Made by a program: the position numbers. From assembly GCF_003334335.1 (NCBI RefSeq), contig NZ_QOWQ01000004.1: a stretch of DNA of 64,000 nt. One strand, given 5' to 3'. Below are positions 29,201 through 32,200 of the stretch, one piece after another. Numbering within the stretch: the stretch's first letter is position 1; every line of letters begins with the position of its first letter. The DNA is from Escherichia coli (GTDB lineage Bacteria > Pseudomonadota > Gammaproteobacteria > Enterobacterales > Enterobacteriaceae).

Positions 29201-32200
29201 AGGTTGGTTTTCTCCCTCTCCCTGTGGGAGAGGGCCGGGGTGAGGGCATCAGCGCGCACGTTCACCCTCACCCTAACCCTCTCCCTCAAGGGAGAGGGGA
29301 CCGATCGAGCACAAATTTTGAGAGATATCTTCTTCTGTCTTGTAACAGAAGAACAGAAAATCGGGCTTTTGCGCCTGAATATTGCGGAGAAAAAGCATGG
29401 CCGGGAATGACCGCGAGCCAATTGGACGCAAAGGGAAACCGACGCGTCCGGTCAAACAAAAGGTAAGCCGTCGTCGTTACGAAGATGACGATGATTACGA
29501 CGATTATGATGACTATGAGGATGAAGAACCGATGCCGCGCAAAGGTAAGGGCAAAGGCAAAGGGCGTAAGCCTCGTGGCAAACGCGGCTGGCTATGGCTA
29601 CTGCTAAAACTGGCTATCGTTTTTGCCGTGCTGATCGCCATTTACGGCGTTTATCTCGATCAAAAAATTCGTAGCCGTATTGATGGCAAGGTCTGGCAAC
29701 TGCCTGCGGCAGTTTATGGCCGAATGGTCAATCTTGAGCCAGACATGACCATCAGCAAGAACGAGATGGTGAAGCTGCTGGAGGCGACCCAGTATCGTCA
29801 GGTGTCGAAAATGACCCGTCCTGGCGAATTTACCGTGCAGGCCAACAGCATTGAGATGATTCGCCGTCCGTTTGATTTCCCGGACAGTAAAGAAGGACAG
29901 GTGCGCGCGCGTCTGACCTTTGATGGCGATCATCTGGCGACGATCGTCAATATGGAGAACAACCGTCAGTTCGGTTTCTTCCGTCTTGATCCGCGTCTGA
30001 TCACCATGATCTCTTCGCCAAACGGTGAGCAGCGTCTGTTTGTGCCGCGCAGTGGTTTCCCGGATTTGCTGGTGGATACTTTGCTGGCGACAGAAGACCG
30101 TCATTTTTACGAGCATGATGGAATCAGTCTCTACTCAATCGGACGTGCGGTGCTGGCAAACCTGACCGCCGGACGCACGGTACAGGGTGCGAGTACGCTG
30201 ACGCAACAGCTGGTGAAAAACCTGTTCCTCTCCAGCGAGCGTTCTTACTGGCGTAAAGCGAACGAAGCTTACATGGCGCTGATCATGGACGCGCGTTACA
30301 GCAAAGACCGTATTCTTGAGCTGTATATGAACGAGGTGTATCTCGGTCAGAGCGGCGACAACGAAATCCGCGGCTTCCCGCTGGCAAGCTTGTATTACTT
30401 TGGTCGCCCGGTAGAAGAGCTAAGCCTCGACCAGCAGGCGCTGTTAGTCGGTATGGTGAAAGGGGCGTCCATCTACAACCCGTGGCGTAACCCAAAACTG
30501 GCGCTGGAGCGACGTAATCTGGTGCTGCGTCTGCTGCAACAGCAACAGATTATTGATCAAGAACTCTATGACATGTTGAGTGCCCGTCCGCTGGGGGTTC
30601 AGCCGCGCGGTGGGGTGATCTCTCCTCAGCCAGCCTTTATGCAACTGGTGCGTCAGGAGCTGCAGGCAAAACTGGGCGATAAGGTAAAAGATCTCTCCGG
30701 CGTGAAGATCTTCACTACCTTTGACTCGGTGGCCCAGGACGCGGCAGAAAAAGCCGCCGTGGAAGGCATTCCGGCACTGAAGAAACAGCGTAAGTTGAGC
30801 GATCTTGAAACTGCGATTGTGGTCGTCGACCGCTTTAGTGGTGAAGTTCGTGCGATGGTCGGAGGTTCTGAGCCGCAGTTTGCGGGCTACAACCGTGCGA
30901 TGCAGGCGCGTCGTTCGATTGGTTCCCTTGCAAAACCAGCGACTTATCTGACGGCCTTAAGCCAGCCGAAAATCTATCGTCTGAATACGTGGATTGCGGA
31001 TGCGCCAATTGCGCTGCGTCAGCCGAATGGCCAGGTCTGGTCACCGCAGAATGATGACCGTCGTTATAGCGAAAGCGGCAGAGTGATGCTGGTGGATGCG
31101 TTGACCCGTTCGATGAACGTGCCGACGGTAAATCTGGGGATGGCGCTGGGGCTGCCTGCGGTTACGGAGACCTGGATTAAACTGGGCGTACCGAAAGATC
31201 AGTTGCATCCGGTTCCGGCAATGCTGCTGGGGGCGTTGAACTTAACGCCAATCGAAGTGGCGCAGGCATTCCAGACCATCGCCAGCGGTGGTAACCGTGC
31301 ACCGCTTTCTGCGCTGCGTTCGGTAATCGCGGAAGATGGCAAAGTGCTGTATCAGAGCTTCCCGCAGGCGGAACGCGCTGTTCCGGCGCAGGCGGCGTAT
31401 CTGACACTATGGACCATGCAGCAGGTGGTACAACGCGGTACGGGTCGTCAGCTTGGGGCGAAATACCCGAACCTGCATCTGGCAGGGAAAACAGGGACTA
31501 CCAACAATAACGTAGATACCTGGTTTGCGGGCATTGACGGCAGCACGGTGACCATCACCTGGGTCGGCCGTGATAACAACCAGCCGACCAAACTGTATGG
31601 TGCCAGCGGGGCAATGTCGATTTATCAGCGTTATCTGGCTAACCAGACGCCAACGCCGCTGAATCTTGTTCCGCCAGAAGATATTGCAGATATGGGCGTG
31701 GACTACGACGGCAACTTTGTTTGCAGCGGTGGCATGCGTATCTTGCCGGTCTGGACCAGCGATCCGCAATCGCTGTGCCAGCAGAGCGAGATGCAGCAGC
31801 AGCCGTCAGGCAATCCGTTTGATCAGTCTTCTCAGCCGCAGCAACAGCCGCAACAGCAACCTGCTCAGCAAGAGCAGAAAGACAGCGACGGTGTAGCCGG
31901 TTGGATCAAGGATATGTTTGGTAGTAATTAACATCTAAGCGTGAAATACCGGATGGCGAGTTGCCATCCGGTAAAATAACATCCCATCTAAGATATTAAC
32001 CCTTTCTTTTCATCTGGTTGTTTATTAACCCTTCAGGAACGCTCAGATTGCGTACCGCTTGCGAACCCGCCAGCGTTTCGAATATTATCTTATCTTTATA
32101 ATAATCATTCTCGTTTACGTTATCATTCACTTTACATCAGAGATATACCAATGGCGCGTTCCAAAACTGCTCAGCCAAAACACTCACTGCGTAAAATCGC

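What the first reader, a model, noticed from the sequence alone, without database searches (positions are those of the whole stretch)
29214..29298. Three tandem C-rich/G-rich hairpins between hrpB and mrcB
Three consecutive palindromes share nearly identical arms (CCCTCTCCC/GGGAGAGGG, GGGTGAGGG/CCCTCACCC, CCCTCTCCCT/AGGGAGAGGG) in alternating orientation, so several mutually exclusive foldings are possible in DNA or RNA. They are distinct from the canonical REP sequences elsewhere in the window and may belong to the Box C repeat family, though I cannot confirm that from memory. A similar but single C/T-rich versus G/A-rich hairpin follows yadH (9148..9179). The element sits just after the hrpB stop and about 100 nt upstream of mrcB, so it could act as a terminator, mRNA stabiliser or protein-binding site. 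The ORF track places five small ORFs over it, which I consider artefacts.
Basis: seen in the sequence. Interest (0 to 1): 0.45.

Follow-up and report, generated by a model that had tools for sequence, protein, structure and literature searches.

The report
Inverted pair of BoxC repeats
The C-rich/G-rich hairpins between hrpB and mrcB are two back-to-back copies of BoxC, a small interspersed repeat of E. coli already catalogued at this exact position, so the finding is real but ordinary.

Summary
They are not three independent hairpins. They are two inverted three-block units, type B on + and type A on -, joined tail to tail. Conserved heads extend the element to about 29208-29312. Holder et al. 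2015 list these units as TMECO no. 1 and 2 and equate them with BoxC and PIT elements. Kaplan et al. 2016 list them as HPGQ 5 and 6.

New here:
- E. albertii, E. whittamii, another Escherichia and B2-type E. coli have an empty 93-nt spacer, so the pair was inserted.
- About 60% of 5,426 E. coli genomes carry the intact pair, about 5% carry internal deletions between its direct repeats, and about 35% are empty.
- Other genera carry BoxC units in the same slot, and rare E. coli carry the pair in the opposite order.
- Published Term-seq places an RNA 3' end at window 29303, 5 nt past the hairpin foot, and similarly at five other BoxC or BoxC-like sites.

Most likely it is a selfish, deletion-prone repeat whose hairpin passively sets the hrpB mRNA 3' end.

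The parts
29208..29259 (+). BoxC unit, type B (TMECO no. 1 = 29214-29247). Head TTTTCT 29208-29213; C-block CCCTCTCCC 29214-29222; loop TGT; G-block GGGAGAGGG 29226-29234; linker CCG; G-block GGGTGAGGG 29238-29246; tail CATCAGCGCGCAC 29247-29259.
   Evidence: Sequence. Identical to Holder 2015 Table 1 no. 1, MG1655 164547-164580. Head and tail are shared with the single type-B copies at ilvC-ppiC and xynR-argF.
29260..29312 (-). BoxC unit, type A, on the minus strand (TMECO no. 2 = 29264-29298). On the + strand it reads CCCTCACCC 29265-29273, TAA, CCCTCTCCC 29277-29285, loop TCAA, GGGAGAGGG 29290-29298, then the head GACCGATCGAGCAC 29299-29312.
   Evidence: Identical to Holder 2015 Table 1 no. 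2, MG1655 164631-164597. The head GAC(C/T)G..GAGCAC is conserved at ygfF-gcvP, alx-sstT, lldD-trmL and fabI.
29247..29264 (.). 18-nt centre CATCAGCGCGCACGTTCA. These are the overlapping tails of the two units and the apical region of the long hairpin.
   Evidence: The homologous centres at fepB-entC, ygfF-gcvP and alx-sstT are 28-30 nt long and conserved among themselves.
29214..29298 (+). The 85-nt imperfect palindrome as a whole. RNA MFE is a nested hairpin of -74 to -76 kcal/mol. G4-type motifs lie at 29226-29246 (+) and 29265-29285 (-).
29303..29303 (+). Published Term-seq RNA 3' end (MG1655 164636 +, score 987, class 'orphan'), 5 nt 3' of the last G of GGGAGAGGG.
   Evidence: Adams et al. 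2021, Supplementary files 1 and 3. Position checked against the 61-nt sequence given there.
29199..29201 (+). hrpB stop codon (TAA), 6 nt upstream of the element.
29318..29346 (+). Predicted mrcB promoter TTGAGA-17-TGTAAC (-35 at 29318-29323, -10 at 29341-29346), starting 5 nt after the element. This is context, not part of the repeat.
   Evidence: Genomic SELEX table of Shimada et al. 2014, located in the sequence.

Best explanation
This is a tail-to-tail inverted pair of BoxC units. The same elements are also called PIT elements, TMECO no. 1 and 2, and HPGQ no. 5 and 6. BoxC is a known, non-coding, roughly 55-bp interspersed extragenic repeat of E. coli and related Enterobacteriaceae. Shown: the pair was inserted into what was ancestrally a 14-nt slot between the hrpB stop codon and the predicted mrcB -35 hexamer. 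It is dispensable, being absent from about 35% of E. coli genomes. It is unstable, and deletions end precisely at its internal 9-10-nt direct repeats. Inferred: when hrpB transcription reads through it, the RNA folds into a very stable hairpin with no U tract. That hairpin most likely acts as a barrier to 3'-to-5' exonucleases, as REP elements do, and so sets the steady-state hrpB 3' end at window 29303. It probably does not act as an intrinsic terminator. The element most likely persists as a selfish or neutral repeat rather than because it serves hrpB or mrcB.
For: Identity: both halves match the published table entries and coordinates exactly. The locus is also listed by Kaplan et al.. Head and tail flanks are shared with other MG1655 copies. 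The element is multicopy, with a median of 9 and up to 24 BLAST places per genome in 4816 of 5426 genomes. The unit length of about 53-55 nt fits the 51-59 bp given for BoxC.

Insertion: E. albertii, E. whittamii and Escherichia sp. MOD1-EC7003 have a 93-nt spacer with no blocks. So do all Citrobacter loci with a detectable mrcB and Salmonella arizonae. Nissle 1917, CFT073 and ST131-type E. coli have the same 93-nt empty allele.

Instability: five alleles were aligned. A 64-bp deletion lies between the GGGAGAGGG repeats, a 63-bp deletion between the CCCTCTCCCT repeats, and a 12-bp deletion between CCCT repeats. The centre is intact in 3252 genomes and at least 80% of the locus is present in 3536. 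At least 1471 genomes have the exact empty junction. This agrees with the 'palindrome effect' of Holder et al..

RNA: MFE is -74 to -76 kcal/mol, z = -8.35. A Term-seq 3' end lies 5 nt past the stem. Four other BoxC or BoxC-like sites have 3' ends 3-4 nt after the hairpin, and one has it 11 nt after. No U tract or terminator-like site is present. Dar & Sorek showed that U-less stable stem-loops define 3' ends by blocking PNPase and RNase II.

Selfish spread: 13 of 23 MG1655 copies share the same G.A mismatch in the stem. That points to copying from a master sequence rather than selection for pairing.
Against: The Term-seq 3' end here is weak (score 987, listed once) and classed as 'orphan'. 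It does not distinguish termination from trimming. No transposase, target-site duplication or other mobility mechanism is known or found. About 10 nt of the ancestral spacer (AGACCAAAGC) are replaced rather than duplicated. Recurrent occupation of the same slot in many genera could indicate selection for a function there. Alternatively, this slot may simply be the only permissive place in the spacer. In vivo DMS footprinting gave no evidence of a stable non-B DNA structure. The cause of the instability therefore remains inferred.
Confidence: 0.85

Rival explanations
1. The pair is a functional transcription terminator or insulator. It would stop hrpB transcription before it runs into the mrcB promoter, which starts only 5 nt downstream, and would be kept by selection for that role.
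For: An RNA 3' end maps at the foot of the hairpin. The hairpin is extremely stable. In the ancestral arrangement the hrpB stop codon is 14 nt from the predicted -35, so read-through is otherwise unavoidable. BoxC units occupy exactly this slot in Enterobacter, Leclercia, Lelliottia, Phytobacter and others.
Against: There is no U tract and no terminator-like match. PIT/BoxC elements showed no terminator activity in the work summarised by Holder et al.. About 35% of E. coli, all Citrobacter loci examined, Salmonella arizonae and the outgroup Escherichia species lack it. Several species that carry BoxC here also carry a separate canonical terminator-like hairpin next to it.
Confidence: 0.12
2. 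The element works at the DNA level as a non-B structure switch (intrastrand triplex, G-quadruplex or cruciform). This switch would modulate the adjacent mrcB promoter or replication, or would be an adaptive generator of local variation.
For: Each half satisfies the purine-motif triplex arrangement, and such oligonucleotides form stable triplexes in vitro, Tm 70-82 C. G4 motifs lie on both strands, and circular dichroism shows a G4/hairpin switch. The element sits in the UP-element position of the predicted mrcB promoter. TMECO loci are more variable than control loci.
Against: With the complementary strand present only duplex was seen, and in vivo DMS footprinting showed no protection. No functional class or fixed distance to genes was found. 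No effect was seen on promoter or polymerase activity in vivo, as summarised. The deletions observed here are explained by simple slippage between direct repeats.
Confidence: 0.1
3. It is a locus-specific regulatory RNA or a protein-binding site made of three independent hairpins, unrelated to any repeat family.
For: Only the first-pass appearance of three hairpins supports this.
Against: The same units occur at 18 other places in MG1655, and matches occur in 4816 genomes. There is no Rfam family, only sub-threshold microRNA look-alikes. The element is absent from a third of strains.
Confidence: 0.02

Closest known systems
BoxC / PIT element / TMECO (Bergler 1992 and Bachellier 1996 as cited by Holder; Hoyne and Maher 2000-2002 as cited by Holder; Holder et al. 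2015, PMC4666352)
   Same: Sequence, coordinates, three-block architecture, A+B inverted pairing, intergenic position, multicopy distribution and local instability. This locus is entries 1 and 2 of their Table 1.
   Different: Nothing at the level of identity. Added here are the ancestral empty state, allele frequencies in 5,426 genomes, occupation of the same slot in other genera and in the opposite order, and RNA 3' ends at the hairpin foot.
HPGQ motifs HPG1/HPG2 (Kaplan et al. 2016, PMC5100583)
   Same: The same two units are listed as HPGQ no. 6 (midpoint 164608, -) and no. 5 (164569, +) between hrpB and mrcB. The G3N1-7 x4 motif is confirmed by regex.
   Different: That paper treats them as a G-quadruplex/hairpin switch with a presumed regulatory role and does not connect them to BoxC.
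REP/BIME elements
   Same: Extragenic, palindromic and multicopy. They occur singly or in inverted pairs, often just after stop codons, fold into stable RNA stem-loops without U tracts, and have RNA 3' ends at the stem foot. REPs occupy the same hrpB-mrcB slot in Salmonella arizonae and Leclercia.
   Different: The sequence is unrelated. BoxC has a third G-block giving triplex and G4 potential. No RAYT-type transposase is associated. There are about 20-30 copies instead of hundreds.
MITEs (e.g. ERIC/IRU, Correia elements)
   Same: Small, non-coding and palindromic, with presence/absence polymorphism and clean empty sites.
   Different: No target-site duplication was found at this locus, and no parent IS or transposase is known. 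The ancestral 10 nt are replaced rather than duplicated.
Intrinsic (Rho-independent) terminator
   Same: A GC-rich hairpin directly after a stop codon, with an RNA 3' end mapped just downstream.
   Different: There is no U tract, the hairpin is far longer than a terminator stem, and the literature as cited reports no terminator activity.

Membership tests
BoxC / PIT / TMECO | Three blocks in the order CCCTC(T/G)CCC(C), 3-5-nt loop, GGG(G)AGAGGG, 3-nt linker, GGGTGAGGG. | tested here: met
   Both halves have it. They are letter-for-letter TMECO no. 1 and no. 2.
BoxC / PIT / TMECO | The linker defines the type: TTA for type A, CCG or TCG for type B. Inverted pairs always combine one A with one B. 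| tested here: met
   The + half has CCG (B). The - half has TTA (A), read as TAA on +.
BoxC / PIT / TMECO | Unit of about 51-59 bp with conserved sequence beyond the three blocks. | tested here: met
   The B unit is TTTTCT + 34 nt + CATCAGCGCGCAC. This is shared with the ilvC-ppiC copy and, with substitutions in head and tail, with the xynR-argF copy. The A head GACCGATCGAGCAC is shared with four other loci.
BoxC / PIT / TMECO | Interspersed, multicopy and strictly intergenic. | tested here: met
   Matches in 4816 of 5426 genomes, with a median of 9 and a maximum of 24 places per genome. It lies between hrpB and mrcB.
BoxC / PIT / TMECO | The single strand forms an intrastrand purine-motif triplex in vitro. 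| not testable with these tools
   The block register allows G.G:C, A.A:T and T.A:T triads by inspection.
REP/BIME | REP consensus core (GCCKGATGCGRCG-type imperfect palindrome). | tested here: not met
   No match in the element. The only REP-core match in the window is at 3451 on the minus strand.
Intrinsic terminator | GC-rich stem-loop followed immediately by a U-rich tract. | tested here: not met
   The scan finds no terminator-like site in the element. The stem is followed by GACCGATCGAGCAC.
MITE | Terminal inverted repeats plus target-site duplication at the filled site relative to the empty site. | tested here: not met
   The ends are inverted repeats. The alignment of filled and empty alleles shows no duplication, and AGACCAAAGC is replaced.
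G-quadruplex motif (HPGQ) | Four G3 tracts separated by 1-7 nt. | tested here: met
   29226-29246 (+) and 29265-29285 (-). Folding in vivo was not tested.
Rfam RNA families | Score at or above a family's gathering threshold. | tested here: not met
   The best hit is mir-197 at 29.4 bits against a threshold of 74. All hits are hairpin look-alikes.

The most novel reading that the evidence does not exclude
BoxC hairpins may not be inert. In vivo they would be a second class of 3'-end-defining exonuclease barriers, without U tracts and REP-like. Term-seq 3' ends lie 3-5 nt past the stem at five BoxC or BoxC-like MG1655 sites and 11 nt past it at a sixth. In addition, the slot between the hrpB stop codon and the mrcB promoter has been colonised repeatedly. 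Within Escherichia this happened at least twice, in opposite orders and with different outer flanks, and it happened again in the Enterobacter/Leclercia/Lelliottia group, Phytobacter and others. This would imply either targeted insertion by an unknown mobilising activity or selection for a strong hairpin at this position.
Probability: 0.3. Interest if true: 0.4.

Novelty: already known. Interest (0 to 1): 0.15.

Why it matters
It matters little as a discovery. The element and this very copy are in the literature under four names, and it is missing only from current RefSeq annotation. That omission is why a sequence-only reader flags it. The locus is still a clean natural example of what such repeats do. 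It shows an ancestral empty site, an intact pair, and a series of deletions ending exactly at the internal direct repeats, all at measurable frequencies in thousands of genomes. The Term-seq 3' ends at the hairpin foot, here and at other copies, suggest a simple and testable molecular effect, protection of the mRNA 3' end. The papers read here on these elements did not report any such effect or look at RNA 3' ends.

Tried and rejected
- Rfam scan at E <= 10 returned only sub-threshold microRNA-precursor look-alikes, as expected for any long GC hairpin.
- The promoter/terminator consensus scan found nothing in the element.
- A target-site duplication was looked for in the alignment of filled and empty alleles and none was found.
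- Junction-specific megablast counts for the two single-hairpin alleles were not used. The tool joins the two flanking pieces of full-length alleles into one 'place', so the counts of 689 and 771 are inflated. The estimate of about 5% comes instead.
- The supplements of Dar & Sorek 2018 are not held as text, and the TERMITe supplements contain nothing for hrpB or mrcB.
- Adams et al. list no Rho-termination region named for hrpB or mrcB.
- The six ORFs of at least 20 aa over the element were rejected as genes. RefSeq has no CDS there, and the segment is absent or deleted in about 40% of genomes. One common deletion is 64 bp, which is not a multiple of 3.
- The yadH hairpin at 9146-9179 was rejected as a relative.
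- A simple inversion of the E69-type arrangement into the K-12-type was considered and judged unlikely, because the outer flanks differ. It is not excluded.
- The first mrcB start-finding script used a wrong frame and was redone with tblastn.
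Full report
**1. The observation.** The window matches E. coli K-12 MG1655. Window position equals MG1655 position minus 135,333, because hrpB ends at 164,534 = 29201 and mrcB starts at 164,730 = 29397. The sequence at 29214-29298 reads CCCTCTCCC-TGT-GGGAGAGGG-CCG-GGGTGAGGG-CATCAGCGCGCACGTTCA-CCCTCACCC-TAA-CCCTCTCCC-TCAA-GGGAGAGGG. The block GGGWGAGGG occurs six times on the two strands. All six are here, against 0.46 expected for the whole window, and 0 of 100 shuffles reached 6. 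BLAST of either unit against the window finds no further copy.

**2. Anatomy.** Three independent hairpins are not the best description. As RNA, the + strand folds into one nested hairpin of about 85 nt. The MFE is -75.8 kcal/mol for 29195-29320, z = -8.35, and -74.2 for 29202-29312. The three local hairpins sum to -57.9 kcal/mol. Prefix folding suggests the local hairpins form first during transcription and are then replaced by the nested fold. The minus-strand RNA and the ssDNA behave the same way. The repeating unit has three blocks: C-block, loop, G-block, 3-nt linker, G-block. It is present twice, once on + (linker CCG) and once on - (linker TTA). Each unit also contains a G3N1-7 x4 motif.

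**3. Identity.** A full-text search for BoxC led to Holder et al. 2015. Their Table 1 lists TMECO no. 1, CCCTCTCCCTGTGGGAGAGGGCCGGGGTGAGGGC, at 164,547-164,580 +, type B. It lists no. 2, CCCTCTCCCTTGAGGGAGAGGGTTAGGGTGAGGGT, at 164,631-164,597 -, type A. These are window 29214-29247 and the reverse complement of 29264-29298. The authors state that the motif is the one earlier called BoxC and then PIT element. They find it 23 times in MG1655, always intergenic, with five inverted A+B pairs. Kaplan et al. 2016 list the same two units between hrpB and mrcB as putative G-quadruplex/hairpin switches HPGQ 5 and 6. BoxC is given as 56 bp (range 51-59) with 32-33 copies in the original GenBank annotation. 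Current RefSeq records annotate nothing here. Rfam has no family for it.

**4. My own test of membership.** I fetched the four other paired loci of MG1655 and four single copies and compared them.
- The B unit is conserved beyond the three blocks. Its head TTTTCT and tail CATCAGCGCGCAC are shared with the ilvC-ppiC copy. The xynR-argF copy has substituted versions of both (TGTTCT and CACCAACGCGCAG).
- The A-unit head GACCGATCGAGCAC recurs as GAC(C/T)G..GAGCAC at ygfF-gcvP, alx-sstT, lldD-trmL and fabI.
- The 18-nt 'spacer' in the window is therefore the overlapping tails of the two units. The element spans about 29208-29312.
- Each unit is 53-55 nt, which agrees with the published BoxC length.
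- Other pairs have a longer centre of 28-30 nt that is conserved among them. Head-to-head arrangements also exist, at lldD-trmL and yagA-yagE.

In 5,426 complete E. coli genomes the 101-nt query finds matches in 4,816. The median is 9 places per genome and the maximum is 24.

**5. Polymorphism and direction of change.** A 411-nt query across the locus hits all 5,426 genomes but covers at least 80% in only 3,536. Alignment of representatives shows an allelic series:
- the intact pair (K-12, O157:H7);
- a 12-bp deletion between CCCT repeats (strain 99-3311);
- a 64-bp deletion between the two GGGAGAGGG direct repeats, leaving one hairpin with loop TGT (DEC9B);
- a 63-bp deletion between the two CCCTCTCCCT direct repeats, leaving one hairpin with loop TCAA (14EC017);
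- an empty allele with a 93-nt spacer (Nissle 1917, ET896).

The intact centre is present in 3,252 genomes, or 60%. About 284 genomes (5%) therefore carry internal deletions. About 1,890 (35%) are empty-like, and 1,471 of these have the exact empty junction, including CFT073. The single-hairpin alleles are the 'palindrome effect' described by Holder et al..

For the ancestral state I fetched the locus from 80 species representatives through the HrpB C-terminus. E. albertii, E. whittamii and Escherichia sp. MOD1-EC7003 have the 93-nt empty spacer. All Citrobacter loci with a detectable mrcB and Salmonella arizonae have no blocks. The pair is therefore an insertion within E. coli. No target-site duplication is visible. 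Ten ancestral nucleotides (AGACCAAAGC) are replaced.

**6. The same slot elsewhere.** Of 75 loci where mrcB was found, 29 carry BoxC-type blocks in this spacer. They always sit immediately upstream of the invariant ATTTTGAGAGAT(A/T)TCTTCTT sequence.
- Most Enterobacter have one B unit on the minus strand.
- Leclercia has a REP followed by a BoxC unit.
- Lelliottia V86_10 has an A(+)/B(-) pair.
- Phytobacter diazotrophicus has three tandem composite units.
- One unnamed Enterobacteriaceae isolate has 16 blocks.
- E. coli E69 has the pair in the opposite order, A(+)...B(-). Its 18-nt centre is similar to the K-12 centre but its outer flanks differ. A near-identical allele was seen in only about two of the 5,426 genomes.

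Shimada et al. 2014 predict the mrcB promoter as TTGAGA-17-TGTAAC. That places the -35 at 29318-29323. The element therefore ends 5 nt upstream of the -35, and in empty alleles the hrpB stop is only 14 nt from it. The recurrent position may mean only that this is the sole place in the spacer where an insertion is tolerated. Targeting or selection cannot be excluded.

**7. Transcript ends.** Adams et al. 2021 list a curated Term-seq 3' end at 164,636 (+), score 987, class 'orphan', 94 nt upstream of mrcB. This is window 29303, 5 nt after the last G of GGGAGAGGG. It is listed once in Supplementary file 1, so it was seen in only one of the three growth conditions, and it is weak.

Searching the same table for BoxC blocks gave five more sites. 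At 3,781,065 + (after lldD), 3,959,467 - (score 28,044), 4,231,270 - and 847,200 - the 3' end lies 3-4 nt after the hairpin. At 632,098 + it lies 11 nt after. Some of these sites are degenerate BoxC-like copies that are not in the TMECO table. None is followed by a U tract, and the consensus scan finds no terminator here. Holder et al. report, citing Hoyne and Maher, that PIT elements have no promoter or terminator activity. [quoted passage not shown] The BoxC hairpin fits that picture. This step is inference.

**8. DNA structures.** The triplex is shown only for single-stranded oligonucleotides. With the complementary strand present, and in vivo by DMS footprinting, only duplex was seen. The G4/hairpin switch is likewise in vitro only. 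The most common subfamily, 13 of 23 copies, carries the same G.A mismatch in its stem. That suggests copying from a master sequence rather than selection for pairing at each site. The element is almost absent from phage records (4 of 50,697) and rare on plasmids (344 of 72,556). The best-matching 'plasmid' records are megabase-sized and probably chromosomal.

**9. Verdict.** The finding is real. The Box C guess was correct. The element and this copy are already described. The best-supported account is a dispensable, deletion-prone, selfish repeat inserted between hrpB and the mrcB promoter, whose RNA hairpin passively sets the hrpB 3' end. Interest is low. The modest residual novelty lies in the RNA 3'-end pattern across copies and the repeated colonisation of this slot.

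**10. Aside.** Downstream of the element, the hairpin at 29330-29353 is conserved in all 76 aligned spacers. It shows clear compensatory changes in its four apical pairs and has no Rfam match. It is a better candidate for a functional structure than the BoxC pair.

Noticed in passing
window 29330-29353 (flanks 29318-29366): A 9-bp hairpin, TTCTTCTGT-N6-ACAGAAGAA, lies upstream of mrcB. It is conserved in 76 Enterobacteriaceae spacers, including those without BoxC. Its four apical pairs covary strongly (for example GC 41 / AU 20 / UA 6, and CG 38 / UA 30), its loop varies freely and its flanks are invariant. There is no Rfam hit. The predicted mrcB -10 (TGTAAC) lies in its loop, so either the promoter prediction or an RNA-structure reading needs revisiting.
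   Followed up: partly
It has no BoxC block and no BLAST similarity to the element. It is probably the yadH terminator.
   Followed up: partly
L017:1801-1994 (E. coli E69, CP089930.1); also H81 (strain CP53): The BoxC pair at the same locus is in the opposite order, A(+)...B(-). Its 18-nt centre is similar to the K-12 one but its outer flanks differ. L019 carries a single-hairpin deletion derivative of this arrangement. The allele is very rare among 5,426 genomes.
   Followed up: partly
L066:1801-2168 (Phytobacter diazotrophicus); L065:1801-2309 (Enterobacteriaceae RIT691): The hrpB-mrcB spacer is expanded to 368 and 509 nt. The expansion consists of tandem composite units of roughly 100 bp (start-to-start about 93-94 nt in Phytobacter), each a BoxC unit plus a canonical terminator-like hairpin (for example GATTTTCTC-GTTG-AGAAAATC followed by a T-rich run). 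L065 has up to 16 blocks.
   Followed up: no
L033:1801-1939 (Salmonella enterica arizonae); L042 and L045 (Leclercia): REP-type palindromes occupy the same slot after the hrpB stop. They stand alone in Salmonella and next to a BoxC unit in Leclercia. This spacer collects extragenic repeats of different families.
   Followed up: no
MG1655 3781065 +, 3959467 -, 4231270 -, 847200 -, 632098 + (outside the window): Published Term-seq 3' ends lie 3-4 nt (one at 11 nt) after the C-block/G-block hairpin of other BoxC or BoxC-like units, in both unit orientations and without U tracts.
   Followed up: partly
L015:470-536 (MG1655 yagA-yagE, inside cryptic prophage CP4-6): A truncated A-unit end (CCCCAAAGGGGAGAGGGGACTGCACCGAGCC) abuts a complete B unit head to head, 9 nt apart. 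This is a third kind of BoxC arrangement, besides singles and tail-to-tail pairs.
   Followed up: no
H138 and H139 (Campylobacter phages A18a and A11a, MG065686.1 and MG065691.1): Two Campylobacter phage records contain an 86%-identical match to 90% of the BoxC pair. This is unexpected for that host and may be contamination or chimeric assembly.
   Followed up: no
plasmid collection: 344 plasmid records carry BoxC-like matches, including Klebsiella 143, Enterobacter 38, Citrobacter 34, Aeromonas 33 and Azospirillum 14. Holder et al. reported no association with plasmids. Several top hits are megabase-sized 'plasmids' that are probably chromosomal.
   Followed up: no
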